Of a stretch of 64,000 bases of DNA, positions 2,081 through 53,745 are shown in pieces. A program made the position numbers and the translations under genes. The stretch is from Octopus vulgaris (taxonomy: Eukaryota). The stretch covers positions 2,480,001 to 2,544,000 of the forward strand of contig OX597827.1 of NCBI GenBank assembly GCA_951406725.2, given 5' to 3'. Under the pieces are notes generated by a model, which saw only the letters and a program-made list of their open reading frames with translations, had not been told where the DNA came from and ran no database searches. How positions within the stretch are numbered: the first letter of the stretch is position 1; each line of letters opens with the position of its first letter.

Positions 2081-2115
2081 ATGAATATTTCGCTGCAATT
2101 TCAGCTCATCAGCAT
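2081..2115 (-). ncRNA. Minimal type I hammerhead ribozyme, canonical core (Penelope-like)
   Basis: Minus strand AUG-CUGAUGA-GCUG(AAAUUG)CAGC-GAA-AUAU-U-CAU: stem I AUG/CAU, intact core, 4-bp stem II, palindromic minimal stem III, AUU triplet; TATATAA about 50 nt upstream on the same strand. Confidence 0.75.
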
Positions 2116-2184
2116 CATTGACTCGAGTCACATCGAAATAAATTCTAATCGCCGGTCTGAGGTGTTTATATATAAATGTGTGTA

Positions 2185-2264
<80 letters not shown>

Positions 2265-2279
2265 TGCATATATATTCGT

Positions 2280-2440
2280 GCAGGCGTGGCTGAGTGGTAA
2301 GAAGTTTGCTTTCCAACCACATGGCTCCGAGTTCAGTCCCTCTGCGTGACACCTTGGGTAAGAGCCTTCTACTATAGCTTTAGGCCAGCCACAACCTTGA
2401 GAGTGGATTTAGTTGACGAAAACTGAAAGAAGCCAGTCGT
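2280..2440 (+). mobile_element. SINE family A, 5' half
   Basis: gcaggcgtggctgagtggtaag (A-box), gagttcagtccc (B-box-like), ccttgggtaag, aaactgaaagaagcc. Confidence 0.85.
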
Positions 2441-2457
2441 AAATGAGTGTGTGTGTG

Positions 2458-2510
<53 letters not shown>

Positions 2511-2613
2511 CAAGCAGAACGCTTGTGTAGGAGGATATAAGAATGTCACCGATAAGGATTACGGAATAAGGTAAAACAAGTAAAAAAAAAAACAATCGGA
2601 ATGGAATGAGTTG

Positions 2614-2654
2614 CACCTGAAGAAGGCTGGAATGTACAACAGACGAAATATAAC
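2614..2654 (+). ncRNA. Degenerate Penelope-type hammerhead motif
   Basis: CAC-CTGAAGA-A-GGCTG..CAGAC-GAAATAT; core intact, stem II mismatched, stem I lost. Confidence 0.45.
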
Positions 2655-3709
2655 CAAACTGAGGACACTAGTCTGAACATATCGGTCTATAAGATTGTTC
2701 ATTCTTCATCTCAGGAATTCAGACAAAACGCTGTGTAGTCTTTCTTTTTTATTTCTTCTTCTTTTGTTTTTAATTAATAAAGGTGGTATTGTAAAATAAA
2801 GATTTTTTTTTCTTTTATTTTCGTTTTGTTTTCGCAGCTTCTTCACGATGACGACCACGAGCACCACCACCGCCACCACCACCACCACCTCTACCACCGC
2901 AACTGCTAGTATCATCATCATCATATTTTTGTTCTTTTTCGTTGTTATTTTCTCGTTTTTTTTATAAATATTTTTCACCTTGCAGCTAGTCTGTAATATT
3001 CCAATGTAAACTTGGTGCCATATGTTGTCCAGTAATCCAAAGATGATGAAGAACACTTATTCCCAGACACAATTGATTACAACCGAAATCTTTCGAAGGA
3101 ATGGTAAAAACCTGCTGTTGCCGTGACCCTCCCGCATTCTCTCCCACTCCCCCTTGTATCTCTCTTATTCCTCTCTCTCTCTCTTTCTTTCTCTCTCTGT
3201 ATGTGTATATATATATACATGCATACATACATATATATATATATATGCATAATATATACCGTATACATACGTACACACACACATACACACACAAACACAC
3301 ACACACACACAAACACACACACACCACACACATATATATATATATAGTATATGTATGTATGCTCACATATATATGATACTCATACAAGCGTATGTGCACA
3401 TATATATGTATACCTATATGTATATACGAATGTATATATCTATATATATAGATATGTAGTATGTATGTATGTATATATGTATATATGCATGTATGTATCC
3501 ATGTATGTATATATGTCTGTATGTATATACGTCTGTCTGTTTGTATGCATGCATGTGTGTGTATGTGTGTGCGCGCGCTTGTGTATGTGTGTGTGTGCGT
3601 GTGTGTGTGTGTGTGTGTGTATGTGTGTGTGTGTGTGTGTGTATCCACGAGATGAAGAGATTGTCTTAGACTTACAACTTGTATTGATTTTTCACTCAGA
3701 TACTTTAGG

Positions 3710-4453
3710 CCAGATGCTGGGATTGTTCGGTGTTCGTTTCTTCACGTCCACCTCTCTCACCCCACCCCCGCTCTATCTCTTATCCCGCCACACACACACA
3801 CACACACACACCCATCATTGCTGCCGCCACCACCACCACCATCACCGACACCGCCATCGTCACTACCATCACTGCAACAAACCATTCCCCTCTTCATTTT
3901 CCGAAACCATTCGTAACGTTGTTTGTGTCTTGATTGTTTGTTGGATACTAATTTCTTGCAAAGAGTAAAATTGGGAAAAAGCAGAAATAAGAAGACAAAC
4001 AAAAAAAAAAGAAAGAAAAAAGAAAATTAAAATTATCAAAAAAAGTAGAATATAAAAAATTATGCATTCATTTTGTCTAGTGGGATGTGAAAATGTGGTT
4101 GTTGTTGTGGTAGTTGTGGTGGTGGTGGTGGTGATGGTGGTTGAGGTGGTGGTAGTGGTGGTGGTTGAGGTGGTGGTGGTTGTGGTTATGGTGGTGGTGG
4201 TTGTGGTGGTTATGGTGGTGGTGGTGGTGGTGGTGGTGGTTGAGGTGGTTGGTGGTAGTGGTGGTGGTGGTGGTGGTTGAGGTGGTTGGTGGTAGTGGTG
4301 GTGGTGGTGGTGGTTGTGGTGGTTGTGTTGATGGTGGTGGTGGTTGTAACAGCAATGATAGGTGTGTGTGTGTGGTGGGATGAGAGATAGAGCGGGGGTG
4401 GTGTGAGAAAGGTGGACGTGAAGAAACAAACACCGAACAATCCCAGTATCTGG
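3710..4453. repeat. Inverted duplication of about 130 bp (3710-3840 vs 4330-4453)
   Basis: ccagatgctgggattgttcggtgttcgtttcttcacgtccacc...cccccgctctatctct recurs as reverse complement ending ...caccgaacaatcccagtatctgg. Confidence 0.9.
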
Positions 4454-4506
4454 TTGGTGGTAGGAGTGGTGAGAGTGGTGGTGGTGGTGATGCTGATGAC
4501 GATGGC

Positions 4507-4542
<36 letters not shown>

Positions 4543-4872
4543 AGTGATGACGGCGATGATAGTGATGACAATGATGATGATGACAATGACCATGACAGTG
4601 ATGACGGTGACGATGACAGTGGTTGTGATGGTGGTGACGACGACGATGATGATGACGACGATGATGATGGTGATGATTGTGATGGTGATGGTGATGGTGA
4701 TGATGATGATGATGATGGTGATGAGAAGGATGATGGTGATGGTGATGGTGATGATGATGATGGTGATGATTGTGATGGTGATGGTGATGGTGATGATGAT
4801 GATGGTGATGAGAAGGATGATTGTGATGGTGATGGTGATGATGATGATGATGATAGTGGTAGTGGTGGTGGT
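4095..4872. repeat. Compound (GGT)n/(GAT)n trinucleotide microsatellite
   Basis: Direct inspection. Confidence 0.95.
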
Positions 4873-5200
4873 ACTTCTGCTGGCGGTACTCTGATAGAGA
4901 TAATGTTTAATTTGGAAAACATATAATTCTGAAGGATATCTATAGAAGCATTCCCCACTTAAACTCCTTTCCATAATTCCCTACAACTGTAACCTTTTCC
5001 ATCCTTATCTCCCACTCCCTCTCTCCTTCTCTCTGTCTCTCCCTCTCTCCTTCTCTCCCTCTCCACCTCTCTACCCCTTCTACCTCTCTTTTTCGATTTC
5101 TCTCACATCATCTCTCTTACACTCACTTTCTTTCACACATTCTCTCTGTCTTTACCGTTCTCATTTTCTTTATTTTTCTCATATTTTCCTGCCTTTCACT

Positions 5201-5234
<34 letters not shown>

Positions 5235-5314
5235 CTATTTATCTATCTATCTACATCTCTCTCTCTCTCTCTCTCTATCTCTCTCGCTCGCTCTCTCTCT
5301 ATCTCTCTCGCTCG

Positions 5315-5375
<61 letters not shown>

Positions 5376-6001
5376 ACTAGTTATGTCTCTTATTTTCTCT
5401 GTATATCTCTCATTAATTTTATATTTTATCTTGTCTCTTCCATTCTTTCTACCACTCACTCAGTCTGACTACCCACCTCTCTCTCTCCCTCTATCTTTGT
5501 CTTTCTTATTTTCTCTATTACTCCTCTTTGTTTCACCCTGTCTATCTTTCTGTCATTCACTCACTCCTATTTCTCTTCCTTATTTTCTCTTTCTCTCTCA
5601 TGTTTCTTCTCTTCCTCCCCATCTCTGTCTTTCTCGTTTTCTGTCCCAAACACTTTCCATCACACACACACACACACATACACACACACACACACACTCA
5701 CATATACTCTCCTCTCTCCTTCTCTCTCCCCCGCTTCTTCCTCATCCATATATATTAAAAGCTGCCTGTCTCCTAAACATTTCATGGAGTCTACATAAGC
5801 TGTTTGTTCTTAGATTCTTTTTTTTTCCTGTTGAAAATATTTTAAAGTTTTAAGGTTGATGCTGTTAATGTTGCTGCCTCAACAAAAAAAAATTGAACAG
5901 GTGTATATGGGAAGGGGTGGGGGAAATATCCATTAACTTTAATAGAAGAAATTCAGCCAAATACGACAAAGAAAATTAAATCAAAATCAATTATATATAT
6001 A

Positions 6002-6147
6002 GGCATAGGCGTGGCTGTGTGGTAAGAAGCTTGCTTCCCAACCACATGGTTCCGGGTTCAGTCCCACTGCGTTGTGAGTGGATATGGTAGACGGAAACTG
6101 AAAGAAGACCGTCATATATACATACATATACATATACACACACACAC

Positions 6148-6241
<94 letters not shown>

Positions 6242-6432
6242 ATATCTATAACTGCGCATCTTTGAGTTTGTATTTGTCTCCTACCATCGCTTGACCATCG
6301 GTGATGGTTTGTCCTTATTATCTAGTGGTTCCGCATAAAGAGAACGTTAAAATAAGTTCCAGACCTAACAAAAGATTAGTTCTGGGGTCGAATTTCTTCG
6401 ACTAAACCCTTAACGGTGCTGCCTAGCATGGC
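6002..6432 (+). mobile_element. SINE family A with internal deletion and central (TA)/(TG) tract
   Basis: Head ggcataggcgtggctgtgtggtaag, tail ...ggggtcgaatttcttcgactaaaccc...agcatggcc. Confidence 0.85.
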
Positions 6433-6479
6433 CAGGTTTTCTTTTTAAAGCAACCATTACCATAATGACTTTAGCAGGG

Positions 6480-7020
6480 TAGGAACTCAGAACGTAGAGG
6501 ACTAGTAGAAATACCACAAGGCATTTTCTTCGACGATTGTAACGATTGTTCCAATTCGCTGCCTCTATGTACTTTTATTTTTATCTTTTACTTGTTTCGG
6601 TCATTGGACTGCAGCCATTGCGGGGCACTATCTTGAAAGGTTTAGTCGAACAAATCGACTAGCCACTCAGTTACGGGGACGTAAACAAACCAACACTAGT
6701 TCGTCAGATGGTGGTGGTGGTGATGGGTTAGGAATATAAATCCAAAGACCCAAACACACGCACCCCTACACACACATGCACACACACGCACGCACACACA
6801 CACGCGACGCTAAACAATTTCACAAAACGTTGGTTCCAAATTTTGGCACAAGACCAGCAGTTCCGGGAGAAAGGTCTAAGTCGGTTTCATCGACCCCAGT
6901 GCTCAACTTGTACTTATTGTATCGACTTCAGTGGAATTTGAACTTAGAACGTGCAGACGGACGGAATGCCACCTAATATTTTGCCCGGCGTGCTAACGAT
7001 TCTGCCAACTCACCGCCTTG
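6480..7020 (-). mobile_element. Cluster of degenerate SINE fragments (family B head, family A tail, family B copy 6835-7020)
   Basis: gaactcagaacg, tttacttgtttcggtcattggactgc, ttgcccggcgtgctaacgattctgccaactcaccgcc. Confidence 0.75.
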
Positions 7021-7660
7021 TGAATTCATAGAATACTAGGAAAACACAAGGAAAACAAAAACCTACCAACAACAACAACAACAGCAACAACAATGGGAGT
7101 AGCAGTAGCAGCAATAACAACAACGTGGTTAACAAAACAAGAAATAAGGCAAGATGAATTAAAAACTTTGGTTTCATAATAAAAGAAGAAATTAAAACAA
7201 ACGAAATTAAAGAAAAAATAAAGAAAGAAAAATGAAATAAATATATAAATAAACCCGTGTTTTCGAACCTTGATTACTTAAGATGATTGAATATAATCCG
7301 AGTTTTAATTTTCAAAAAGAAGATGTTATTGAGTGAAATATGGAGACCTGAATAATGTTATTATGAAAAGACCAAAACCGGTTCATTATCGTAATGACGG
7401 CTTTTAAGAAGCTTTTAAATGGGATCGGGTTTTGGTTTTAAAAAAAATGTGGTTTTGGGTTGGGTTCGAGTCTTTCCTTGTCCGTCGTTGTTGTTGTTGC
7501 CTGTCCATGCTGTTAGTATTGTTGTTGTTTATTGTTTCTGTTCTCGTTGTTGTGGTTGTTGGTGTCGCTGTTATTGCTTTATTGTTTTTTTGCTTTGTTG
7601 TTATTGTTGTCGCTGCTGTAGTTGTGGTCGTCACCGTCGCTGTTCTTGTTGTTGTTGTTG

Positions 7661-8158
7661 GTGGTGGTGGTGGTGATGGTGATGGTGGTGGTGGCGATGG
7701 TGGTGGTGATGGTGGCGGTGGTGGTGGCGATGGTGGTGGTGATGGTGGCGGTGGTGGTGGCGATGGTGGTGGTGATGGTGGCGGTGGTGGTGGCGATGGT
7801 GGTGGTGGTGGTGGTGGTGGTGGTGGTGGTGGTGGTGGTGGTGGTGGTGGTGGTGATGGTGGTGGTGGTGGTGGTTGTGGTGGTGGTGGTGGTGGTGGTG
7901 GCGATGGTGGTGGTGGTGGTGGTGGTGGCGGTGGTGGTGGCGGTGGTGGTGGTGGTGGTGGTGGTGGTGGTGGTGGTGGTGGTGGTGGTGGTGGTGGTGG
8001 TGGTGGTGGTGGTGATGGTGGTGGTGGTTGTGGTGGTGGTGGTGGTGGTGGTGGCGGTGGTGGTGGTGGTGGTGGTGGTGGTGGTGGTGGTGGTGGTGGT
8101 GGTGGTGGTGGTGGTGGTGGTGGTGGTGGTTGTGGTGGTGGTGGTGGTGGTGGTGGTG
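7661..8158. repeat. About 500-bp (GGT)n microsatellite
   Basis: Direct inspection; source of the poly-Pro/Gly/Thr/Val ORFs. Confidence 0.97.
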
Positions 8159-8216
8159 TTCTCGCTTTCGTTGTTGTTTTTGTAGTCATGGTCGTCGTTA
8201 TTTTCCCCTATTGTTA

Positions 8217-8442
8217 AATATATTTCTTTATTGCCCACAAGGAGCTAAACACAGAGGGGACAAACAAGTAAAGACAAAGGGATTAAGTCGATTGTATCGA
8301 CCCTAGTGCGTAACTGGTACTTAATTTATCGACCCCGAAAGGATGAAAGGCAAAGTCGACCTCGGCAGAATTTGAACTCAGAACGTAGCGGCAGACGAAA
8401 TACCGCTAAGCATTTCACCCAGCGTGCTAACGATTCTGCCAG
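8217..8442 (-). mobile_element. SINE family B with 14-bp TSD
   Basis: Body ...atcgaccccgaaaggatgaaaggcaaagtcgacctcggcagaatttgaactcagaacg...; TSD ttcccctattgtta at 8203-8216 and 8443-8456. Confidence 0.92.
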
Positions 8443-8458
8443 TTCCCCTATTGTTATA

Positions 8459-9433: not shown

Positions 9434-9685
9434 TATTGTCGTTGTTGTTGTAGTTGTTATTCTCGTCGGTGCCGTTATTGTTTTTGCTGTTGCTGTATAT
9501 GTTGTTATTGCTTTTGTTGTTTTTGTTGCTACTAATGCTGCTGCTGCTTTTGTTGTTGTTGTTGTTGTTGACGTTGTTATCCTTATCGTCATCGCCGTCG
9601 TTGTTATAATTGTTCTGCCCGCTTCCGTGTGATCCCATTAATATGGATAGCGTTTCATTGTCACTTAAGGTAACGCAGGGTCTTC

Positions 9686-14338: not shown

Positions 14339-14828
14339 AAATGGAACGAAAGCATCATAGTGGACAATAAAACATCTGGGCAGATAGACGATACAAAGGT
14401 GGACGCCGATCGCCAACACCTTTTATGTCCATCTCACACATGCCTGCTCAATTTCCCTTTATACACGCCACCTCAATTTGATTCGTCCTCAGTCGAAAGA
14501 CACCTGTTGTTATATTCTTGTTGTTTGTATTTATAATTGCGTACCATGTCCTCTGAGTTTTGTCTTTGATGTAGTACATATTCGCTAGCTTTCTTACAAA
14601 AGAGCTAATGCTCTTATCTTAAAGTTTTTGAGGGGCATCCAGATCGAATAGTCTCAAGTGTAACTGCCCAAAACTGCAAGAACATACGGCAACTTGACTG
14701 ATGGAAGAAGGCCATGAATAACCCATCCTTTTTCCCTGTCCCTCTAATTGTTGATCTTTCCTGTCTGCCTTTGTATCGTCTATCTGTCCGATTGGTTTAT
14801 TATCCTCTATTGCGTTTATGTTCCATTT
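14339..14828. mobile_element. Element with about 65-bp diverged inverted termini, embedded in microsatellites
   Basis: aaatggaac...cagatagacgatacaaagg (14339-14404) vs cctttgtatcgtctatctg...gttccattt (14763-14828). Confidence 0.75.
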
Positions 14829-16020: not shown

Positions 16021-16105
16021 ACTTTTGATATATAAATCTGTATCTATCTATCTATTTATCTATCTATCTATCTCTGTATATATATATATGTCATTCAAAA
16101 TATGA

Positions 16106-16308
16106 CCGCCTGTGTACCGTTGGCGATTTTTTCCCTCCGTCTTCCCTTCCTTGGATCTTTCATTTTCCTATGTTTATGACAAAGAGCTGCGCTCGAAACG
16201 TTAAATCCTCCTTCTTTCTTTCCTTTCCTGAGTATCCAATAACACTACACTTGTTCCACGTCCTCGCGTTGTTGTGTTTTCTCTTTGTGTTTTCATGTTT
16301 GGATTAAC
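16106..16308 (+). mobile_element. Short Penelope-tail-like element with degenerate hammerhead (16172-16206)
   Basis: GTTT-ATGACAA-A-GAGC(TGC)GCTC-GAA-ACGT-T-AAAT; homologous to 22025-22220; microsatellite flanks. Confidence 0.7.
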
Positions 16309-18089: not shown

Positions 18090-18095
<6 letters not shown>

Positions 18096-18220
18096 CAAAC
18101 TGGGACAAGAACGCAAAACATTTAGAAGACGATACAAAAAACATGGACGGGACATTCGAAGCCTTCAATCTTCAGTCAAGAACCGGATCATCCTCGCAAT
18201 TTCGGCTGATTAATCTTGAA
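18090..18220 (-). mobile_element. Short insert in (TA)n with hammerhead-like remnants
   Basis: Minus strand cagccgaaattg and ctgaagattgaaggcttcgaatgtc; TA tracts on both sides. Confidence 0.4.
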
Positions 18221-19512: not shown

Positions 19513-19692
19513 TAGATTCAGATAAATATGGTACTTAAGTTGAGGCACCAGAATTTAGTAAGGTATTATCCATAGAATTTCAAAGTAGGGTGATTAAAAT
19601 CGATGTAATGATTGCATTGTTCAATTAAATGGAGTTCCATGAAACGATCGTACTGCATTACCTCTGTATATCCTTGTTGCTTATTTTGATTA
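19513..19692 (+). mobile_element. Short insert in TA/CATA tract with right half of a hammerhead motif
   Basis: ATGG(AGTT)CCAT-GAA-ACGATCGT-A-CTGCA; 19513-19601 is homologous to the reverse complement of 33519-33606. Confidence 0.55.
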
Positions 19693-20263: not shown

Positions 20264-20317
<54 letters not shown>

Positions 20318-20628
20318 TGAATGAATTATCCTATGTTTATCGTCAGCATGGAAAATTCGTTTGATCGAAACCTGGGTAGCAAATTCACGTCAGAAACACG
20401 GTTAAGCGACCTGTCCAAGGGTAGAAATATATGTCGAGAGTAAAGGAATTTTGTTAACATCTTCGTTCGACTCCATTCTTTCATTTATATATATATATAT
20501 GATCTGATAAGCTTGTCCTGCCTTGGTTTTGTTTTTCCTTTTCCTTTAATCTATACCCACTGACTCGGAAGTGAGCTACAAATCCCCAGCTCTATCCCCG
20601 CTGTGAACTTGGACTCTCACAGAGTAAC

Positions 20629-21774: not shown

Positions 21775-22222
21775 CTTGTACTTGCTTCAGTCGTTGAACC
21801 GCGGCCATGCTGGGGTACTGCCTTGAGGAGTTATAACTAAAGAAATTAGCCCCAGTACTTATTTTTAAGCCATATATTTATTCTATGAGTCTCTTTTGCT
21901 GAAATGCTAAGTTATGAAGACGTAAACAAACCAACAATGCTTGCCAATTCGGGGAAAGTGTGGTGGCAGAAACAAACACAATGATACGTCTGCACATGTA
22001 CGCGCGCGCACACATATAAACGTGGCCCGGTGGCGATTTCTTCTCCTTCTTTGGATTTTTTCCTTTCTCCTTTCCGACGAAGATCTCTGCTCGAAACATT
22101 AAACACCCTCCTTTCACCGAGCATCAAGCCAATATGTCGAGCGTCAAGCACATCCTCGCGTTTCTTCTTTCTTCTTCATTGTTTTTTATCCGTTAATAGA
22201 ATTGTTTGGTTATTTGAATTGA

Positions 22223-22260
<38 letters not shown>

Positions 22261-26325: not shown

Positions 26326-26452
26326 GCAATATTTCTAACAAGCTTGGAATTGCTGTGTCCATAATCCTTCCAGATTTATGAGATTAATTGGAATGAAAAT
26401 CTCTTAATAACGGTCTGTATGGATATAAAAGATTTAAATTTTGTCAACCGCT

Positions 26453-26534
26453 GCTAAGGTGGCTGAGTGATTAAGGCGTTGGACTCAAAATCCAATGAGT
26501 TATACCAGCGCAGGTTCGAATTCTGCCCGTAGCG
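26453..26534 (+). tRNA. tRNA-Ser-type gene or pseudogene with CAA anticodon
   Basis: 82 nt: acceptor GCTAAGG/CCGTAGC (1 mismatch), anticodon arm TTGGA-CTCAAAA-TCCAA, long variable arm, T-arm GCAGG-TTCGAAT-TCTGC, G discriminator; resembles metazoan tRNA-Ser(CGA); no encoded CCA. Confidence 0.88.
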
Positions 26535-26544
26535 ATTTAGTTTA

Positions 26545-26968: not shown

Positions 26969-27794
26969 GGATCTTTTCATTTTGAAAGCCAGATTTTTCA
27001 GATTTTTCTAGTTAACTAAATAATTTGAAACTTCGTATACTGGTAGAATGTGTCAAAAGAAAACAATAATTTCAACTAGTTTTTTTGACAAAAATGTATT
27101 TTATAAGTTTAAACGTAGTTTAAATCTGCGAATTTTAACCAATCGTATTGTCTGTTTTCATTAGAAATTATTAGCTGCATCGTGTTACTGTGACGTAGAC
27201 AGCTATTTTGTGAGTGGGTAAGCAGTAAGCAAACAGCTGTGGTAGATATGGTTATCGTGGCAGTGGTGGTGGTGGTGGTGGTGGCGGCGGCGGCGGCAGT
27301 GGATGATGATGATAATGATGATGATAGTAGTAGTAGCATTGATTATGTTAGGATGTCTCATGGATGGTAGTGTTGAAGACATTGCAGAGTGTAGTGGTGG
27401 TGAAATTGGTGATTTTAAATATGATGCTGGTATTGATCTTGGGGTTGTGGTTGCAGAAGATGGTTGTGGTGGTGGCATTGGAGGTTGTAGTAATGGTTGT
27501 AGTGGTGGTTGTGAAGATGATTCTGATATTGATAGTCTTTGCATTGAGGTGGTGGCAGAGTCAGAGTAAATAATAAGAGCCCAGTTAACACAAGATTCTT
27601 AAATTTCGGAGATCATAAGATAGAGAGCAAGAAGTTAAAAGTTCCAATACTGGCCCAATACCTACACCCCAGATTCTTCAACTATTTTATAAGAAAGAGG
27701 TTAATGGCAGGATAGGGATTCAGCTTAAAAATAAATTGTATAACAAAAAATACATAAATAAATTACTGCTCCAACGATGTAATTTTAGTATGTA

Positions 27795-27833: not shown

Positions 27834-28242
27834 GCAATGCAAACAATGGAAAATAATTTAAACACTCATTTTATATATACTAAGACTTTCAAAAAGAATT
27901 TAGCTATTTAGGATCTGCACAAATTTTTTATATACTCCACGAAGTTTGAAAGTGTTTAGTTACGATAAGCGGATGTTTACATTTTATGTTTACGTTAACT
28001 ACGTCACAAAATAGCTGTTTACGTTACAGTAACAATATTTTGAGAGGCAGTAAATGATATGAAGTCGAAAGAAAGAATATCATTGGTTAAAATTCGAATT
28101 ATTAAACGTTAAACTTAGAAATTACACTTCCGTTTTCATTTTGGTTTACAATTATGTTTTCTTTTGATACATTCTACCAGTATACGAAGTTTCAAATTGT
28201 TTAGTTAACTAGGAAAATCTGGCTTTCAAAATGAAAAGATCG
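26969..28242. mobile_element. Non-autonomous DNA transposon with long (about 240 bp) TIRs and 8-bp TSD (MULE/Merlin-like)
   Basis: Ends ggatcttttcattttgaaagccagatttt / aaaatctggctttcaaaatgaaaagatcg; similarity extends to cagctattttgtga; TSD gaactgcg at 26961-26968 and 28243-28250. Confidence 0.88.
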
Positions 28243-33510: not shown

Positions 33511-33872
33511 AATGGAGTGATTATAATCACCCCATTTGATTTATATGGATAATACCATACTAAATTCTGGTGCCTTTAACTTAAGTACCATATTCATCTG
33601 AATCTAAATTTTTGCTGAACTTATATATATATATATATATATTTATAGAAGATGTGTAGAATGAAATAAAAGGTATTCTGTACAATCTTCGTTCAACTCC
33701 ATTTATTCCATTCACTAATAATATATATATATATATATATATACATACATACCTACCTACCTACATACCTACCTACCTACCTACCTACCTACCTACATAC
33801 ATACATACATACATACATACATACATACATACATACACACACACAAACACCCACATACATACATACATACAT

Positions 33873-40084: not shown

Positions 40085-40279
40085 AATAAATAATAACAAA
40101 GGGTAAAATTAATTAATTAAGAAGTAATCAATAATTTCACCAAGTAGAATTTGGTATGAAAAAAGGACCATTTCACGAAAACTTAAGTAATACTAATAAA
40201 AGGGTTCAGCAAAGATTTGTTTCACCAGACACCGAAGTTTAGAAATAGCAGCCAAAAATCTTAGCTATTTCTTTTATTA

Positions 40280-40371: not shown

Positions 40372-40409
40372 CAGTACCGGTTTCGGTCATTTTGAGACCT
40401 TTTCAACTG
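40372..40409 (-). ncRNA. Minimal hammerhead ribozyme with U3-A8 compensatory core
   Basis: Minus strand CAG-UUGAAAA-GGUC(UCAAAAU)GACC-GAA-ACCGGU-A-CUG: stems I and II pair, palindromic stem III, GUA triplet. Confidence 0.7.
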
Positions 40410-41710: not shown

Positions 41711-42767
41711 GATTACCATTATTCTTCTAATAGAGCAGGATTGCTTCATTTTTCACCGTCTTTCACTGTAACTTTTCATTGAGTTAGTCCACTGCTATAT
41801 AACCTCCACAACAAGGTCATTCACTAACACAGCAACTGACCAGAGCAGATGAGGTGACCCTTTCAGCTTTTTGGTTGCTCATCTAAAAGAAGGTAATTCC
41901 ATACAAATCCTGCAGCCTTGATAACTAGTAGTGTCATGGCATCGATACAACTTTGAAGGAGGAGACAGAATGGGACAGGCTCTGCATAAACCATGCCTTC
42001 TATGGTAATAAAACAAAATAATATAGTACCACCACCTGTGCTAAAGAGCAAAAACACAAAGTCCACGCCTTTAATGAAATTGCATTAACCCTTCAGCATT
42101 TAAACCATTCATCTCTAGCTCACCTATTCTACCTGTTTATGTGATATTTTGTTTCTTTTTAATAATATTTTTGTTGTTTTTGTAAAATCTGAGAAAATAT
42201 CTGTCGTGTAGGCTGTTTAGTAAACTAAGATACCAACCCCAACACCATCACATTTTCTTCATAAATCCAGAGGTGATAGGGAAGGTACTCTTAGAGGTCT
42301 TTGGCGTTGATCCTGCACATATGTGGCCATAGGCTGAATCTTGTTACCCACAGACCAAGGACAGAAAAATGTTTATTTAACTGTCTCCTGTTGAATCCCT
42401 ATTCTTTAAGGCAATAAATGAATCTCCCATTTTGCCTCAAATATTTTTTTCAGGTTACATACAAATTGTTGAGATTCACAACTTTAAAGCAGTTTCCTCT
42501 TTCCCATATCTGATAGCACACAATAGTTTTCTATTAAGCAATCCTCATCAATTCTCTGCAGATCTCTCTACTAACCCAGTTCTCTTTCTTTCATATCCCA
42601 TTTTGATAACCCAGATACCCATTCACACTCTACGGCTGCTTGTCTTCCATCTTTTATAGCAGTCAATACTACACAACTAATACCTCATTTACATCACATT
42701 ACCTTAAACTACAGTTGCTTCTAGTGATTCTCTTTCAGTTCTCTTTACTCCGGTGTGCTCTGCTTTT

Positions 42768-43095
42768 GTGAAGGTGCATGGCGTAGTGGTTAGTGTATTT
42801 GGCTCATGATTATAAGGTTATGAGTTCAATTCCTGGAAATGTGTTTTGCTTTTGAGCAAGACACTTTACTTCACATTTCTCCAGTCCACTCAGCCAGCAA
42901 AAATGAATTGTACCTGTGTTTCAATGGGCCAGCCTTGCCATATTTTGTGTCAAGCTGAATCTCCCTGCCAACTATGATGAAGGTACATGTATCTGTGGAG
43001 TACTCAGTCAATTGTATGTTAATTTCTCAAGCAGGCTTTTCCATTGATCAGCTCAACTGGGGCACTGATCGTTGCAACCAACAGATTGCCAGTTT
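42768..43095 (+). mobile_element. tRNA-headed SINE family D
   Basis: A-box tggcgtagtggttag, B-box gagttcaattcc, ttgagcaagacacttt, ctccagtccactcagc. Confidence 0.75.
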
Positions 43096-43829
43096 GCACT
43101 ACTTTTAATGCAAGTTGGTTTCCATTTGTCCTGAGTAAAACATGAAACCTCTTGGTGAGATTCCAGCTCAGGAGTTCTAGAGTATTGGAGATTGTGAAGT
43201 TATACTTTACGTACGACTTTACTTGATTTTTCTCCGGCTTGGAGTAGTAACACCTGTCAAGGACCCCAGTTTATTAATCAAAGAGTGGAAGATTGTCCTG
43301 TGGCTAAGACCTACAGAACTTGAAGGAGAACTAGCTCCTAGACATACGTTGCACAGACCCTGCTGTCACAAGAACCAGTCACTCATATATAAATGGTTAA
43401 ATAGGCTCTGTCTGTCTGTCTGTATATATATGTGTGTGTTTGTGTGAGTGTATTATTGTGTGTCTAGACATCGCACTCTTGTCTTGACACCACATTAGGG
43501 TTGTAAATGAGCATTGTTATTTATTTTCAGTTTTCTTAGAAAAGCATATCTAGCTATGGAAAATATTACCGTTTGGAAACAGACAAGGGTTGGGGGCATC
43601 CAGTTGTAAAAAATCTGTCCCAATGAATTCTGTCTGACCTATGCAAGTCTGGAAAAGTTGAGTTAAACAATGAAACTGGTCTCAAGAGTAAGCTCAGGAA
43701 AGCAAGAGAATATCAAAGTCAACTGTAAACATACTGAAGAACAGCAACAGGAAACCACGATTACAGCTTATCCAAGAAAAATCATGAACCTTCAGACTTT
43801 GGCATATATACTTGATCACTAAATCCATA

Positions 43830-43982
43830 AGTTTTTTTTATATTTTCTCTTATTCCTTTCTGTTGAAGAGCGTAGGCTTGAAATATAAAAGACTTCCTCA
43901 CTCTCCTGACCATCAGACTAATACACCTGCTTGAAGACAGGTTCATACACCTGTCTTCATCTTTTCTGTAAATTTCAACTAT
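43830..43982 (+). mobile_element. Penelope-tail-like element with hammerhead-like motif (43856-43891, CUGUUGA core)
   Basis: CTTT-CTGTTGA-A-GAGC(GTAG)GCTT-GAA-ATAT-A-AAAG; homologous to 53562-53745 (minus). Confidence 0.7.
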
Positions 43983-44884
43983 ATATATATAGTTGGACAC
44001 TTTCTTTTTTTGCCAATTGAACACCTCAGCAAATTCTATCTGGTCCATGGAAGCATGGGAAATTAATTATTGGATGTTAAATGATGGTGATGATTGTGAT
44101 CTTTTTCAAAGACATGTTTGTCAGTAACTTCATGCTATCATGCCTATACAAAATACATGCACAGTGTTCTGGCCTACCATTTTCCTGTGTCTTGCTGCTG
44201 AGAATCTCAATCAATAAATTCTTATCACTTTATGTTTCCTCAGAATTGAACTCAGATGTGGTTGAGTAGTTAAGGCATTCTCTCCCAAAATACACTGTTT
44301 CAGGTTCAGTCCTACTGCATAGTATCTTCTACCAAAGTCTCAGCTTCATATTAACCTTATAAATGTATGAGAGAGTTCGTTTAAATTCTTATGGGGTAGC
44401 ATTAGTGCATCACTTTGCATATAACCCCCACCACCAGGCTTGGATATCTTTAGTGGAGTCCACAGCAATGTAAGCCTTCAGTCCCCCCCTCTATCTCTCT
44501 CTCTCTTTTGAAAGTGTTGGATTGACCTGAAAACTGGGAAAGTATTGTGCCTTCTACATCCTGACTGTCATACCAAAAACTATTTTGTGTAGACAACATA
44601 CATGAATGGACAGGGGTAGCTGTGTGGTAAGAAGTTTCTTTCCAGGGAGAACGACCTGTTCAGGATAATGGATTCCTTCCCTAAGGATACCTATAGGTTT
44701 ATGTTGAATGGGCCCTACTTGGAACCGTTACAGTGTTTTTCTGAGGAATGGAGTCTTATAGGGCAAGAAGATTCTAATTTTGATACCTAAAATGATGTTA
44801 TGCAGTTGGACAAATAGTTTGATAGACAGACAGATAGATAGCTACTTGAGTACATAGTTATGACCTACAAATGCACAAATACCT

Positions 44885-45117
44885 ATTTCTTAACAACCCA
44901 CAAGGGGCTAAACACAGAGAGGACAAACAATGACAGGCAAACAGATTAAATTGATTATATCGACCCTAGTGCATAACTGGTACTTAATTTATCGACCCTG
45001 AAAAGATGAAAGGCAAAGTCGACCTCAGCGGAATTTGAACTCAGAACGTAACGGCAGACGAAATACGGCTACGCATTTTGCCCGGCGTGCTAACAATTCT
45101 GCCGACTCGCTGCCTTC
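44885..45117 (-). mobile_element. SINE family B, full length
   Basis: Consensus body; flanking direct repeat caaatacc. Confidence 0.92.
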
Positions 45118-46043
45118 GCAAATACCAAACACACACACACACAATCATAAATTGCAGCTTACAAATACTTAACACACACACTCTGGTACTTTATATATTT
45201 TGCTTATGAATATATTTTAAAAGACAGTACAGCATTCCTCCTCCCCCTTTCCTCCTCCTCCTCCTCGTTTTTCCTTGTATTCCTTGTATTTCAACTCTCC
45301 CACTTCATCTTCCCCTCCTTCTCCTCTTCCTCTTCATCATCATCATCCTCAAAGGTGAAATTTCTTTGTTTAGTAAAGAATTAATTAAAAAAATATTTTC
45401 AAAAAAATAAACAAAAACTAAAAGAAAACATAATAAACATCACTTCAACAAATATATAGGTAGGTAAAATAAAAGAATTTCAAATTAACCAAACCAAATA
45501 AAAAAAAACAAACAATAAGGACTACAAAATAAAATATCAAACACATCAAAATATGAATAGTAATTAAAAAAAAAACATAATAAATAACAATACCAGGGAC
45601 AGCAGTAACAACATCAGCAATAATAATACAAATAATAATGATAATAGTAATAATAATGATGATGATGATAATGATGATGATGACGATGATACTATTAATA
45701 TTGTTGATGATAATGATGATGATTATAATATTTTAAGTGTTTTCTTTCAAATTTTATAACAAGAAAAGCAATTTTTAAATTGTAAATAAATGAAAAAAAA
45801 AAATATGAAAGACTGTAAATATGAAAAAATAGGAAATATGAAGACAAGTAATGTAACTTTTTTTATACTTCTGTACTTCCATAATACTTGTACAAGTGGA
45901 TAGGTATGTCACTACGTATGTGCTGTGTATGTATTTATATATGAGCATACATATACATGTGTGTGTATATATGTATATATATATATATATATGTAAATAT
46001 ATATATATGTATTACACACACATATAAATATATACATATATAC

Positions 46044-47208: not shown

Positions 47209-47241
<33 letters not shown>

Positions 47242-47403
47242 ATATATGTATATATGTATGTATGTATACGCAATCACACATAATTTTCTTCCCAAGGAAA
47301 ATCTTGTTTGTCATTAAAATTTTTGTAACAATGACAAATTCCTCTTGCAGAATATTTTTTCTCATTTTCAGAAACACCCAACCAAAAACTGCACCAGCAG
47401 CCA

Positions 47404-47443
<40 letters not shown>

Positions 47444-47445
47444 GA

Positions 47446-47486
<41 letters not shown>

Positions 47487-48604
47487 ACGATGGTGATGGT
47501 TGTGGTACCATGAAGTAAAGTTAGGGGTACCTCTATGTGATACTCGACCTGCTAGAAAGAACAGCTGTATTGCCAAATGTCAACACTCTAAACAATGCCT
47601 GATGCCTAATGCTACCATAAACACTATACTAGCATCAATACCACTAATCTGACCCTCACCCTCACCTCTACCATCAACCACTAGCACCATCATCAGTACA
47701 ATTACTGCCATCATCATCACTACCATCACCATCTCCGTCATCATCCCAATTACTATTTATTTAATTATTTTATTTTATCTAGTTTCAGCTCACGAGCTGT
47801 GGCCATGCTGGGGCACCGCCACTATCATCAGCATCATTGTCATTATTATCTCCACCACCACCACCACCACCACCACCACCACTTCTATGCCATCACTGCT
47901 TCCAGCGCCACCATCATCTCCAGCATCACCACCACTTCCACTGTCACTACCACCAGTACCATTACCATCATCACAACCAGCACCACCACCAGAAACGCCA
48001 CCACCACCACCACCACCAGTGTCACTAACATCATCACTCTCCGACACCACCATCATTACCACTACAACCAACACCACCACCACCCTTGTCATCACCATTA
48101 ACATCCCCATCATTTGTCACCAACACCCACAACACCACCACCACCACCACCACCAGTGCCTCCACCTTTGTCTTTATGAGAATGACCAACCCCACCCCAC
48201 CCCACCTCTGATGCTCAAACTTATAGACAAACACAGAAACTCATGCCTGATCTAAGTCATATAGTCTCTCTCTCTCACACACTCACACACACACACACAC
48301 ACGTACACATGCACACACTTGTGTGCACATGCATATTCACACACACAAACAAAATGCACATGCTCAAACACTAACACACACAGAGAAAACACCACATACC
48401 AACACAAGCACACACATACTACATGGACACACCTAAGCTCAAAGTTATTCAGTACCCCTCACACAAACACACACACACACACAAGCACACATACATACAA
48501 CATATGCTCATGCACACACCCAAATAGTGTCTCACACACGCACACACACACACACACACACACACCACATATTCTCATGCACACACCCACATAGTGTCAC
48601 ACAC

Positions 48605-48638
<34 letters not shown>

Positions 48639-48839
48639 CTGAAAGCCACTAATTCTTGCCTGGCTACTTACCTGTCTGTACACATGTAAACGTGTGTGTG
48701 TGTGTATGTGTGAGTGAGAGAGAGAGAGATGGAGGGAGAATGTGTGTATTTGACTGTGTATGTGTGCATATTCATGTGTGTGCATATGCATGTGTGTATG
48801 TATGCGTGTTTGTACATATGCATGTATGTATGTGTGTTT

Positions 48840-48906
<67 letters not shown>

Positions 48907-49399
48907 TGTGTTTCGGAGAACGTGTGTTTCAGTAGCATGTGGATGTAAGAGAGACAGACTGTGCCTGTTTGAATGTGTATGTACATGTGAATGTGTGTGT
49001 GTCTGTGTGCGAGAGAGGGAGAGCGAGGAGGGAGAGAGACTCTGTGTGTGTGTGTGTGTGTTTCTGTCTATGCCTGCCTGCCTGCTCGCCTGTCACTATT
49101 CGGCACCTAGACCAAGATTTAAATTAGCTATTATCCTCTCAGAAAACTGTTCCAATTGCTTCAGTAGTGTTGTGTTGTGTTCAATAAATACAGATTTAGT
49201 TCTTAAGAATGAACGATGAATTTCAAATGGAAAAACAGTATTGATTATATTTCTCTCCAGTTACTGCCCCCCACCCCCCCACCCATACCTCTCACCCACA
49301 CACATTCAGACATGCAGTTTTCCACCATCTGCTTTACTCTCTCTCACCCCTCTCTCTCTTTCTCCCGCGTGCTCTCTCTACCCCTCACTCTCTTCCTCA

Positions 49400-49407
49400 T
49401 CTCTCTC

Positions 49408-49441
<34 letters not shown>

Positions 49442-49479
49442 ATTCTGTCTATCATTCTATCTATCTATCTATCTATCTA

Positions 49480-49540
<61 letters not shown>

Positions 49541-49555
49541 TTATCTATCTATCTA

Positions 49556-49618
<63 letters not shown>

Positions 49619-49858
49619 GTCTGTCTGTCTATCAATTTATCAGTATCTATCAATATGATTGTCTTTCTATTTATTTGCATATCTGTCTTTCTAGGTATCA
49701 ACTTAATGGTCTGTCTCTCTGTCAATATTTCTATATGATGCCTATGTTTGTATGTATGTATGTATGTATGTATGTATGTATGTATGTATGTATGTATGTA
49801 TGTATGTATGTATGAATGTATGTATGTATGTATGTATGTATGTGTGTATGTATGTATG

Positions 49859-49892
<34 letters not shown>

Positions 49893-50234
49893 TGCATGTA
49901 TGTATGTATGTATGTATGTAATTATGTATGTATGTTTGTATGTATGTATGTATGTATGTATGTATGTATGTATGTATGTATGCATGTATGTATGCATGTA
50001 TGTATGTATATATGCATGTATGTATGTATGTATGTATGCATGTATGCATGTATGTATGTATGTATGTATGTATGTATGTATATATGCATTATGTATGTAT
50101 GTATGTATGTATGTATGTACGTATGTATGTATGTATGTATGTATATATGCATTATGTATGTATGTATGTATGTATGTATCCGTCTGTCTCCCTGCCTGCC
50201 TGTCTGTCTATCTATCTGTCTGTCTGTCTGACTA

Positions 50235-50269
<35 letters not shown>

Positions 50270-50320
50270 ATCTATCTATCTATCTAACTGTCTATCTATC
50301 TATATGTCTGTCTGTCTGTA
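49400..50320. repeat. (TCTA)n/(TCTG)n then (TGTA)n tetranucleotide arrays
   Basis: Direct inspection. Confidence 0.95.
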
Positions 50321-50675
50321 TAATCTCCCTCCCTCATTCACTCTCTCCCTATGTTTATTTTGTCTCTTTAACATTCTGTATTCAAGATATATGAATTCTC
50401 CTTTTCTCTCTCTCTCCCCCTCGCCTGTCTCTCTCCCTCTTCTTCTCTTTCTTTCTCTTTCTCTCTCTCTCTGACTTAAACTACACACAGATGAGGATAA
50501 GAGAGAAGTGGTGCCAGATTAGGATTGTGAAACACAGAGGCGAGTGCACGGCTAAGAGGAGGGTGTGAATTGGAGGAAGGAGAGATCCCCACCCCTCCAA
50601 AAAAAAAATTATAGATAAGCAGGATGGAAAAGCAGATAAGAAAGAAAGGATGAAAGGAAGGAAGGAAGGAAAAGT

Positions 50676-50718
50676 AGAAGAAGAAGAAGAAGAAGAAGAA
50701 GAAGAAGAAGAAGAAGAA

Positions 50719-50765
<47 letters not shown>

Positions 50766-50854
50766 AGAAGAAGAAGAAGAAGAAGAAGAAGAAGAAGAAG
50801 AAGAAGAAGAAGAAGAAGAAGAAGAAGAAGAAGAAGAAGAAGAAGAAGAAGAAG
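50676..50854. repeat. (GAA)n tract, about 180 bp
   Basis: Direct inspection; single GAG interruption. Confidence 0.97.
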
Positions 50855-51121
50855 GGTGTTGGCAGTTTTTTTTTTAAATTTGGTTTTGATTTTTCTAAAT
50901 TTCGTTTTGCAACATTCTTCTACTTTACACAATATTATGTGTGTTCCCATGCATACACACATGCTGCGTGTTCCCATGCATACACACATGCTACATGTGC
51001 ACACACATGCACAAACACTTACGAGAGAAAGAGGACACATGCATAAACTGACAAACATATTTGTGTGTGTATATATGTGCATGTATGTATATAGATAGAT
51101 TAAAAACTATGTATATGCAGG

Positions 51122-51160
<39 letters not shown>

Positions 51161-51439
51161 ATTTATATGTATGTAGATATATATATGGATGTATATATAT
51201 ATATGTATTTATGTATATACATATATATATATGTATATGTATATGTATATGCATATGTATATGTATGTGTATATATATGTATATATACGTATGTATATAT
51301 ATATATGTATATTTATATGTACATGTATCTATGTACATATATATATATATATGTACATATACATATGTATATATATATATGTGTATATGCATATATATAT
51401 GTATATATATAGGTGTATATGCATATATATATGTATATA

Positions 51440-51494
<55 letters not shown>

Positions 51495-51503
51495 GTGTGT
51501 GTA

Positions 51504-51547
<44 letters not shown>

Positions 51548-51628
51548 TAAATAGATAGATGGATAGATATTTAGATATGTACATATGTAACTATGTATGT
51601 ATGCATTTAATGTGCTATTGTATTTAAC

Positions 51629-51679
<51 letters not shown>

Positions 51680-52624
51680 TTTCTGTGAAATTTTCTAGTT
51701 TCATTATTCTGTTTCCAAAGGATTATCAGAGAAATACCAAACATGTTTAATCCGATTAAAAAATAAATTAAGGTGAGGAGGAGGGGAGGATAAGAACATT
51801 TCTGTATTGGTGTTAGAGATAGAAAGTTGGACATAGTAACTGGGGTGGGAAGGGAAAAGCATATGCCGTATATGGTAGTGGTAGTTGCGTTGGTGGTGAT
51901 GGTGGTGGTGGTGGTGGTAGTGGTAGTAGTGGTGGTGGTGATTGCAATGGTTGTGGTGCTGGTGGTAAAGGAGCTATGTTGATGGTAGCGGTGGGGATAG
52001 CGGGGTGTGGGGGGAAGAAGCATCTGTGGTGACCCATCATGATGAGCATTATTGATGCTGATGGTTGTGGTGGAAATAAATAATGGTAGTGGTATTAATG
52101 ATGTTGGTGGTGCTGGTGATGGTGTCAGTGGTACTCCTGATAATGACAATGGTAATGATGATGATGATGATATTGGTAGTTGTCATAATTTAGATAATAA
52201 GGATGATGGCATTTATATTTGTGTTCCTGGTGGTGATGGTGGTGGTGAAGCTGGCGGTGGTGTTGATGACGACGATGATGATGATGATTGTGGTAGTGGT
52301 GATAATGATAATGATAATGATGATCATGATAGTGGTGGTGGTGATGAGGATGGTGGAGGTGATAATAATTATGACAATGAGGATTGTGAGTGAATAAGAT
52401 GGTGATGATTGTGATGATGATGATCATCATCACCGTGACAATAATAATGGAGATGATGACAACGACGATGACGATGGTGATGATGATCATGTTCATAATA
52501 TTCATGGTGGTGGGCACATTGTGACCTCCTGTGCCATGTTGAGGTAAGGTGTGTGTTGTGCCACAAGGTGCAATTCATTTCATTTATTTTTTTCTATATT
52601 TTTACCTTTTACTTCTATATATAT

Positions 52625-53036
52625 GGGCAAAGGAGTGGCTGTGTGGTAAGTAGCTTGCTTACAAACCACATGGTTCCGGGTTCAGTTCCACTGCGTGGTA
52701 ACTTGAGCAAGTGTCTTCTACAATCGCCTCGGGCCAACCAAAGCCTTGTGAGTGGATTTGGTAGACGGAAACTGAAAGAAGCCCATTGTATATATGTATA
52801 TATATATGTGTAAGTGTATGTTTATGTTTGTGTGTCTGTGTTTGTCGCCCCAAAATCGCTTGACAACCGATGGTGGTTTGATTACATCCCTATAAATTAG
52901 CAGTTTGGCAAAAGAGATCGATAGAATAAGTGCTAGGCTAATAAAAGAATAAGTCCTAGGGTCGATTTGCTCGACTAAAGGCAGTGCTTCAGCATGGCCA
53001 CAGTCAAATGACTGAAACAAGTAAAAGAGTAAAGAG
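52625..53036 (+). mobile_element. SINE family A, full length
   Basis: Consensus head and tail. Confidence 0.92.
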
Positions 53037-53058
53037 TATATATATATATATATATATA

Positions 53059-53105
<47 letters not shown>

Positions 53106-53289
53106 AATGTTGAACAATGAAAATGAGTGCTCAACACAACATTGGTGGCTATAATTTCTTTATTTGTGAATTAAAGCTACCATTGGTTTCATGTTCAGAA
53201 AAGTAGGAAAATATCCTATTGTCTTAACAATTATTCACATGAGGAGAGGTGTTCACTTCCGTTTTGGAAAAGACATATATTTATATATA

Positions 53290-53523
53290 TTTATGTGTGA
53301 GGATCTTTGTGTTTGTGTTTGGCCTCCCACCATTGCCTGACGACTGAAGTTGGTGTGTTTATGCCCCTGTAACATAACGGTTTGGCAAAAGAGATTGATA
53401 GAATAAGTAGTAGGCTTACAAAGAATAAGTCCTGGAGTTGATTTCTTCAACTAAAACCCTTCAAGGTGGTGCTCCAGCATGGTCGCAGTGAAATGGCTGA
53501 AATGTGTAAAAGAGTAAAAGAAT
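53290..53523 (+). mobile_element. SINE family A 3' half
   Basis: gaataagtagtaggcttacaaagaataagtcctgg...ggtgctccagcatgg. Confidence 0.85.
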
Positions 53524-53561
53524 ATATACATACATACATATATTTATATATATATATATAT

Positions 53562-53745
53562 AGGGAGAGTTTATGAAAAAAACAAAAGATGAAGACAGGT
53601 GGTGTATAAAACAAACAGATGTATTAGTATAACGCTCAGGAATTGAAAAAGTCTTTTACATTTCAATCCTATGTTCTTCTACAGAAAAGAACAGAGAAAG
53701 AAACAAGGAGAGAAAAAAATGTTGGTAGTGGTTACTGATCTATCA
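53562..53745 (-). mobile_element. Penelope-tail-like element in (TA)n with decayed hammerhead-like motif (53653-53689, CUGUAGA core)
   Basis: Minus strand ttttctgtagaagaacataggattgaaatgtaaaag; homologous to 43830-43982. Confidence 0.7.

What the first reader, a model, noticed from the sequence alone, without database searches (positions are those of the whole stretch)
2081..53745. Dispersed non-coding mini-elements carrying hammerhead ribozyme motifs, in or beside (TA)n tracts
Seen: at least eight short (100-250 bp) non-coding inserts, mostly abutting TA-rich microsatellites, carry all or part of the motif stemI-CUGANGA-stemII-GAA-palindrome-UH-stemI (near 2081, 2614, 16172, 19630, 22070, 40372, 43856, 53653). 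They fall into several unrelated sequence families, and two families occur twice. Known: Penelope-like elements and retrozymes carry minimal type I hammerheads whose palindromic stem III allows dimeric cleavage. Inference: a diverse, high-copy, non-autonomous ribozyme-bearing retroelement system that favours TA microsatellites. No Penelope RT or GIY-YIG ORF is present in the window, and I cannot tell whether these families are already catalogued.
Basis: partly seen in the sequence, partly recalled or inferred. Interest (0 to 1): 0.8.

Follow-up and report, generated by a model that had tools for sequence, protein, structure and literature searches.

The report
Penelope retroelement tails with minimal hammerheads
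The self-cutting-RNA (hammerhead) motifs are really present but mostly decayed, and are likely the leftover tail ends of Penelope-like jumping genes, a known and common feature of invertebrate genomes; one abundant family appears to have spread with a core change that would weaken cutting.

Summary
Partly confirmed, and a known kind. Seven of the 8 cited sites are minimal type I hammerheads: two have an unaltered core, one has the known U3-A8 variant, four are altered. The site at 19630 is a right half only. High-scoring motifs exceed shuffles (8 vs 1.2, scoring set after seeing the sites). The family at 43860/53684 is high-copy, and its majority letters form a better hammerhead than the window copy. 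The same AGAGC/GCUC subtype in other animals has covarying stem I and lies just 3' of RT/GIY-YIG ORFs. Solo minimal hammerheads, (TA)n targeting and octopus Penelope families are all published (PMC4209133, PMC8557442, PMC13282606). The best reading is 5'-truncated 3' ends of several Penelope-like families; no coding partner lies in the window, so a non-autonomous master is not excluded. The residual novelty is that the 43860/53684 family appears to carry U instead of A at core position 6 (both window copies; A in 117 of 119 matches elsewhere). That fits in vitro data that cleavage is dispensable for insertion (PMC11167929). The scan found the same kind in another genome (e1-7882047).

The parts
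2084..2112 (-). Minimal type I hammerhead, unaltered core (stem II GCUG/CAGC, palindrome AUAU, H17 = U); element ends not defined
2617..2652 (+). Minimal hammerhead, unaltered core, stem II with 10-nt loop, stem I lost
16090..16297 (+). Family B copy (about 208 bases, between TA runs); hammerhead 16176-16202 with C3 and G8 changed, A6 kept
19515..19688 (+). Insert between TA runs; right half of a hammerhead with a long palindromic stem III at 19641-19652, 5' core not recognisable; its 5' part recurs at 33519-33604 (-)
22019..22224 (+). Family B copy; hammerhead 22074-22100, A6 kept, U4 changed; 3' end abuts (AC)n, not (TA)n
40375..40406 (-). Minimal hammerhead with U3/A8 core, stem II GGUC/GACC, stem III ACCGGU, long stem I; TA run about 55 bases downstream
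43809..43982 (+). Family A copy (about 175 bases); hammerhead 43860-43887 with U at core position 6 (43863); high-copy family
53563..53745 (-). Family A copy (about 183 bases, between TA runs); hammerhead 53684-53657, U at core position 6 (53681), stem II broken
53086..53283 (-).

Best explanation
These are short, decayed repeats carrying minimal type I hammerhead motifs, and they are likely the 5'-truncated 3' ends (pseudo-LTR parts) of at least five families of endonuclease-bearing Penelope-like retrotransposons. Shown here: the motifs, two repeat pairs, high copy number of family A, nearness to (TA)n, and that the AGAGC/GCUC subtype sits just downstream of RT/GIY-YIG ORFs in other animals. 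Inferred: an autonomous element's GIY-YIG endonuclease nicks AT-rich or (TA)n DNA, its RT copies the RNA from near the 3' end and usually stops after about 200 bases, which leaves the hammerhead (60-120 bases from the 3' end) without the ORF. The copies then drift neutrally. Solo copies would not cleave, because minimal hammerheads need a dimer or protein help. Family A likely amplified from masters whose core already had A6 changed to U, which would mean efficient cleavage was not needed for its spread.
For:: 3,394, 4,353 and 5,550 contigs of three DNA runs (two organisms) lie on 43730-44030; their majority letters at 43879 (88-98%), 43884 and 43885 (71-93%) restore the G10.1-C11.1 pair and the ACGU palindrome; position 17 reads A or U, no G row; 119 matches of the same subtype in 118 metagenome loci have A at the free position 6 in 117; stem I changes on both sides in 34 cells vs 14.4+-3.0 (0 of 500 shuffles; 43 rows). 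L027 has an RT upstream (Pfam RVT_1, E 5e-8), L078 a Cys-linker GIY-YIG ending 100 bases upstream (E 0.0018, below cut-off); 15 of 118 loci show RT/EN coding remnants, and the rest show none with these three queries. PMC4209133 (parts 1-2 and supplement parts 1-2 read): most minimal hammerheads are solo and ascribed to truncated PLEs, and the consensus matches this anatomy. PMC8557442 (passages, supplement parts): (TA)n preference for Hydra and Naiad, Hydra-1_Obim with a hammerhead about 100 bases from its end. PMC13282606 (part 1, supplement row): Penelope-like elements are 6.83% of the O. vulgaris genome, 190 families. PMC11167929 (parts 1-2): AT-rich cleavage, protein-assisted ribozyme, hammerhead mutants still insert in vitro.
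Against: No Penelope coding remnant next to any window copy (best E 0.45-0.55; distant queries, low power). The two family A copies begin at nearly the same 5' point and most inserts are 175-210 bases, more uniform than random truncation would suggest (n small). Depth falls about 100-fold just upstream of the core, so few copies extend 5' at 80% likeness. No stem covariation among window copies of one family. The link to an ORF is shown for the subtype in other animals, not for these families; the host being a cephalopod is my inference from recalled SINE sequence and the Hydra-type stem III.
Confidence: 0.72

Rival explanations
1. Family A (and perhaps B) is an independent, non-autonomous short element of about 180-200 bases derived from a Penelope pseudo-LTR, with its own master copies, mobilised in trans by Penelope RT/endonuclease (a monomeric relative of non-LTR retrozymes).
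For: Near-identical 5' start and similar length of the two A copies; steep loss of depth 5' of 43840 and a sharp 3' end at 43993; non-autonomous PLE derivatives are described (PMC8557442 passage; bioRxiv 10.64898/2026.07.22.740005 parts 1-3).
Against: The two B copies start about 20 bases apart; the 5' drop in depth also follows from a T-rich, diverged query; no tandem units and no promoter seen; 5' truncation is the norm for PLE insertions.
Confidence: 0.2
2. Most motifs are chance matches or unrelated hairpins in an AT-rich, repeat-rich genome.
For: No excess over shuffles at low scores, about one chance hit expected at the high score; no fold beats shuffles; none reaches an Rfam gathering score; 19630 and 53190 lack a 5' core.
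Against: Family A majority letters improve the motif; an independent model finds 16176 at E 1.4e-5; 8 vs 1.2 at high score. Chance remains open for the single-copy sites 2617, 19641 and 53190.
Confidence: 0.06
3. The motifs are host-used, active ribozymes that process the transcripts they lie in.
For: Family A sequence is present in contigs of a run guessed to be RNA; two sites keep an unaltered core.
Against: Five of 8 sites carry private core or stem damage or lack half the core; a single minimal hammerhead showed no cleavage in vitro (PMC4209133); the RNA label is a guess and contigs cannot show ends.
Confidence: 0.02

Closest known systems
Minimal hammerheads (min-HHR) of metazoan Penelope-like elements (Cervera and De la Pena 2014, PMC4209133)
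   Same: Type I order, short stem I, bulged base before stem II, G10.1-C11.1, palindromic 15.2-16.2, U-rich 5' flank, mostly solo, many families per genome, U3-A8 variant; the Acropora Neptune example is nearly the same subtype as families A and B.
   Different: No cephalopod among the 56 examples seen in Fig. S3 text; none of those has U at position 6.
Hydra-clade PLEs including Hydra-1_Obim (Craig et al. 2021, PMC8557442)
   Same: (TA)n preference, hammerhead near the 3' end, longer palindromic stem III; stem III of 53190 equals that of Hydra-1_oBim.
   Different: Flanks of 53190 differ from the printed Hydra-1_oBim flanks; six short motifs from window families were not found in the supplement (line breaks could hide a match).
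Neptune-type PLEs (Cys linker before GIY-YIG)
   Same: The AGAGC/GCUC subtype follows such ORFs in L006, L027 and L078; clade name inferred from the linker motif described in PMC8557442.
   Different: No flank similarity between those loci and the window; no ORF in the window.
Animal non-LTR retrozymes (bioRxiv 10.64898/2026.07.22.740005; PMC7229834 seen as listing only)
   Same: Non-coding, type I hammerhead, Penelope-derived, monomers also occur dispersed.
   Different: Defined by tandem units with a hammerhead in each; the window copies are solo.

Membership tests
min-HHR of PLEs | CUGANGA ... GAAA core with U16.1 and H17 | tested here: met
   Unaltered at 2112 and 2617; U3-A8 variant at 40406; 1-2 changes at 16176, 22074, 43860, 53684; not met at 19641 and 53190
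min-HHR of PLEs | Stem II with G10.1-C11.1 and palindromic stem III | tested here: met
   Different complementary stem II sequences across families; family A majority letters restore both
min-HHR of PLEs | Compensatory changes across copies | tested here: inconclusive
min-HHR of PLEs | A at core position 6 | tested here: not met
   Family A only: U in 2 of 2 window copies and no other letter at >=10% at 43863 (possible seeding bias); met in the other five sites with a 5' core
min-HHR of PLEs | Self-cleavage as dimer or with protein | not testable with these tools
   needs a bench assay
EN+ Penelope-like element | RT plus GIY-YIG ORF upstream of the hammerhead-bearing end | tested here: inconclusive
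   Absent in the window, as expected for truncated copies; present for the subtype in 15 of 118 outside loci; own genome not held
EN+ Penelope-like element | Insertion in (TA)n or AT-rich DNA | tested here: met
   7 of 8 vs 38% background; SINE control 10 of 18; sites pre-selected
EN+ Penelope-like element | Partial tandems or inverted 5'-truncated copies forming pseudo-LTRs | tested here: inconclusive
   No tandem or inverted partner of a hammerhead copy nearby in the self-comparison
Non-LTR retrozyme | Two or more tandem units, each with a type I hammerhead | tested here: not met
   All copies solo; pairs lie 5.9 and 9.8 kb apart
Non-LTR retrozyme | Circular RNA monomers | not testable with these tools
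   only contigs available

The most novel reading that the evidence does not exclude
Family A is a free-standing 180-base Penelope-derived short element that reached thousands to tens of thousands of copies, in at least two subfamilies and two related species, with a non-canonical CUGU core while keeping stem II, GAAA, the ACGU palindrome and a non-G position 17. Either A6U is a working natural hammerhead variant in the protein-assisted setting, or the fold is kept as a non-catalytic signal for the RT. Both would give genome-scale evidence on why Penelope elements carry hammerheads at all.
Probability: 0.2. Interest if true: 0.55.

Novelty: new member of a known kind. Interest (0 to 1): 0.27.

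Why it matters
As a class this is ordinary: it shows how densely decayed Penelope ends litter such a genome and that Rfam misses them. The one useful lead is family A. The role of the hammerhead in Penelope mobility is open (PMC8557442), and core mutants still insert in vitro (PMC11167929). A high-copy natural family fixed for a core change at position 6, where changes lower activity (A6C in PMC3088659 and PMC7151607; CUGA-turn mutants in PMC9901934), would be an in vivo counterpart that a genome search and one cleavage assay can test.

Tried and rejected
Own genome: not held. Rfam on the whole window: E-value mode swamped by microsatellite miRNA models; gathering mode gave only a tRNA; no hammerhead on 43780-43975. 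The repeat finder was swamped by microsatellites, so masked BLAST was used. Exact family A patterns: 0 matches in viral, genome and metagenome contigs; looser pattern 0 in viral contigs. No RNA holder listed. Coding remnants: a stretch at 43750-43815 looked like an endonuclease end by eye but was not supported; the best profile hit (E 0.55) was the antisense frame over the hammerhead itself and is treated as chance. Families A and B share the hammerhead subtype, but their tails are not alike beyond shuffles, so common origin is not claimed. Scan hits at 420, 19184 and 26855 (broken GAAA or inside a SINE), 11404 and 56182 (microsatellite), and hairpins near 1195, 7348, 20367 and 33597 were not accepted. 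The 30-60-fold higher depth of the core over the tail was not used as evidence of selection, because the query copy has many private tail changes. Look-ups of earlier findings by sequence and place were empty; the eight notes concern other systems. 'A6U not in print' rests only; Repbase, Dfam and the O. vulgaris consensus library could not be searched, figures were not seen, and the bioRxiv supplements are closed.
Full report
Setting. The window is AT-rich animal DNA: about 31% is short tandem repeat, and a cluster of 51 related dispersed segments covers about 10.8 kb; by recall these look like cephalopod tRNA-derived SINEs. No whole genome is held. The stretch 42000-45900 is held by DNA runs of several related organisms. 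That the host is an octopus-like cephalopod is my inference, not a tool result.

Check of the observation. A strict descriptor (core, stems I and II of 3 bp or more, palindrome, UH) finds 1 site with no mismatch, 2112-2084 (-); allowing two core mismatches adds 16176, 40406, 43860 and one further hit. A scoring scan ranks 40406, 2112, 43860, 16176 and 2617 among the ten best, with 22074 lower. In masked DNA, 8 hits reach score 25 against 1.17+-1.12 in 355 local dinucleotide shuffles, of which 1 reaches 8; there is no excess at scores 17-19. I designed this score after seeing the sites, so the figure is optimistic. An independent covariance model built from 43 hammerheads of other organisms finds 16176 at E 1.4e-5, 22074 at 0.04, 43860 at 0.16 and 53684 at 4.6, among 23 hits up to E 10, most of them noise. 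The 19630 site has only the right half. Masked self-BLAST confirms two pairs, 16176/22074 (family B) and 43860/53684 (family A; 128 of 165 aligned bases identical). None of nine motifs folds better than shuffles and none reaches an Rfam gathering score; 2112 gives HH9 at E 0.026 on a short stretch.

(TA)n. Seven of 8 motifs lie within 150 bases of (TA)4 or longer, against 38% of unmasked positions (binomial P 0.006). SINE tails give 10 of 18, 22074 is an exception, and the sites were chosen by a reader who noted the TA runs. The bias is real but modest.

Copy number and family letters. Laid on 43730-44030 at 80% likeness, three DNA runs from two organisms gave 3,394, 4,353 and 5,550 contigs, and one run guessed to be RNA gave 1,034. 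Summed depth over the core is 2e4 to 8e4 times the flank. The tool warns that this is no copy number; dividing by 31 for overlapping short contigs gives a floor of about 700 to 2,500 (my correction). The majority letters differ from the window copy at 43879 (C, 88-98%), 43884 (C) and 43885 (G) (71-93%). These restore the G10.1-C11.1 pair and the ACGU palindrome. Position 17 reads A or U, with no G row. A chance motif would not improve in the family majority, so this is the strongest test that family A descends from a real hammerhead. The element ends sharply at 43993, and depth falls about 100-fold upstream of 43840.

The position-6 variant. No other letter reaches 10% at 43863, so the laid contigs carry CUGUUGA. 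Seeding could have excluded A6 contigs, since the exact match to the query runs through this position; the seed length is unknown to me. The second copy, 22% diverged and resembling a different tail variant among the loose ends, also has U6. In 119 matches of the same subtype from other organisms, where the pattern left position 6 free, A occurs 117 times, C once and U once. Family B keeps A6. I put about 0.8 on U6 being the family A majority. Changes at A6 lower activity: A6C under 0.1 per minute (PMC3088659, passages), A6C favouring Mn2+ (PMC7151607, part 1), and low activity of CUGA-turn mutants (PMC9901934, passages). I saw no measurement of A6U itself, and a search for it listed only a twister paper.

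Link to Penelope-like elements. The looser pattern returned 118 metagenome loci out of about 150 estimated; only 80 had long flanks. Over all 69 distinct contexts, the first three stem I positions pair in 53, 56 and 39. In 43 of 58 distinct rows (15 dropped by me as near-duplicates, rearranged copies or forms with a longer stem III), 34 cells change on both sides against 14.4+-3.0, reached by 0 of 500 shuffles; stem II was fixed by the pattern and says nothing. Of 16 outside ORFs scanned, L027 holds an RT (RVT_1, E 5e-8) and L078 a GIY-YIG match below cut-off (E 0.0018) preceded by a Cys linker and ending 100 bases before the hammerhead; two others were host proteins and 12 had no match. With ORFs of L006, L027 and L078 as queries, 15 of 118 loci, those three included, show RT or endonuclease remnants upstream. 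So this subtype marks PLE 3' ends, and most copies elsewhere also lack a detectable ORF. These loci share no flank with the window. In the window itself no RT or endonuclease remnant is found (best E 0.45-0.55), though the queries are distant.

What is known. Cervera and De la Pena (PMC4209133; main text parts 1-2 of 4, supplement parts 1-2 of 3) describe minimal hammerheads in PLE ends, thousands of mostly solo copies per genome in many families, the U3-A8 variant, no cleavage as a monomer and weak cleavage as a dimer. Craig et al. (PMC8557442; passages and supplement parts) list (TA)n as the target of Hydra and Naiad elements, including octopus families, give Hydra-1_oBim a hammerhead about 100 bases from its end, and call the ribozyme's role unclear. 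Its stem III is identical to that of a ninth, half motif at 53190. Bonar et al. (PMC13282606; part 1 of 3, passages, supplement rows) give Penelope-like elements 6.83% of the O. vulgaris genome in 190 families and never mention ribozymes; at that share a 64-kb window would hold about 4 kb of such fragments, more than the roughly 1.8 kb described here. Frangieh et al. (PMC11167929; parts 1-2 of 4) show AT-rich cleavage, a protein-assisted hammerhead, and insertion unaffected by core mutants in vitro. Li et al. (bioRxiv 10.64898/2026.07.22.740005; parts 1-3 of 5) define retrozymes by tandem units and derive them from PLE ends. A squid genome paper counts 235 Rfam hammerheads (PMC6962438, passages). 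Searches for a cephalopod survey of minimal hammerheads listed none.

Mechanism. Shown: motifs, pairs, abundance of family A, TA proximity, and the ORF link for the subtype elsewhere. Inferred: endonuclease nicking at (TA)n, reverse transcription from near the 3' end, early termination that keeps the hammerhead and loses the ORF, then neutral decay. Solo copies would be silent as ribozymes. The main rival is a non-autonomous master for family A, favoured by the shared 5' start of its two copies; the data here cannot separate the two.

Verdict. The feature is real but belongs to a described kind: new family members, interest 0.27. The lead worth following is the apparent A6U core in a high-copy family.

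Noticed in passing
window 58753-59424 (-): Fragment of a Pif1-type helicase (Pfam Pif1_2B_dom, E 6.5e-18), likely a Helitron remnant; next to it a near-identical 329-base direct duplication, 59422-59750 and 59982-60309.
   Followed up: partly
window 26452-26535 (+): tRNA-Leu(CAA) gene.
   Followed up: no
window 14339-14540 (-), 14654-14828 (+), 18093-18219 (-): Related short repeats ending at TA/TG runs; the first two point outwards, head to head. 14654 and 18093 share a CUGANG core-like word with no matching GAAA downstream. A decayed AGAGC/GCUC hairpin without GAAA lies between them near 14600. Possibly further Penelope ends.
   Followed up: partly
window 33519-33604, 33640-33730, 20310-20495: Short inserts between TA runs that end in a shared ACUCCAUU word; 33519 repeats the 5' part of the 19515 insert, and 20367 carries a Hydra-like stem III without a 5' core.
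   Followed up: partly
window 27009-27221 and 27995-28211: About 210-base inverted arms around a 0.8-kb middle, like a DNA-transposon relic.
   Followed up: no
window 40136-40272 and 57128-57276: Another two-copy repeat starting at a TA run; the first copy sits directly beside the 40406 hammerhead insert.
   Followed up: no
L053 604-689: Two hammerheads of the same family in inverted orientation about 30 bases apart, as described for inverted truncated PLE copies.
   Followed up: no
window 43860-43894, run X21: In the run guessed to be RNA, the family majority letters are more frequent (93-98%) than in DNA runs (71-94%), which may mean that younger copies are over-represented; the RNA label is unverified.
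   Followed up: no
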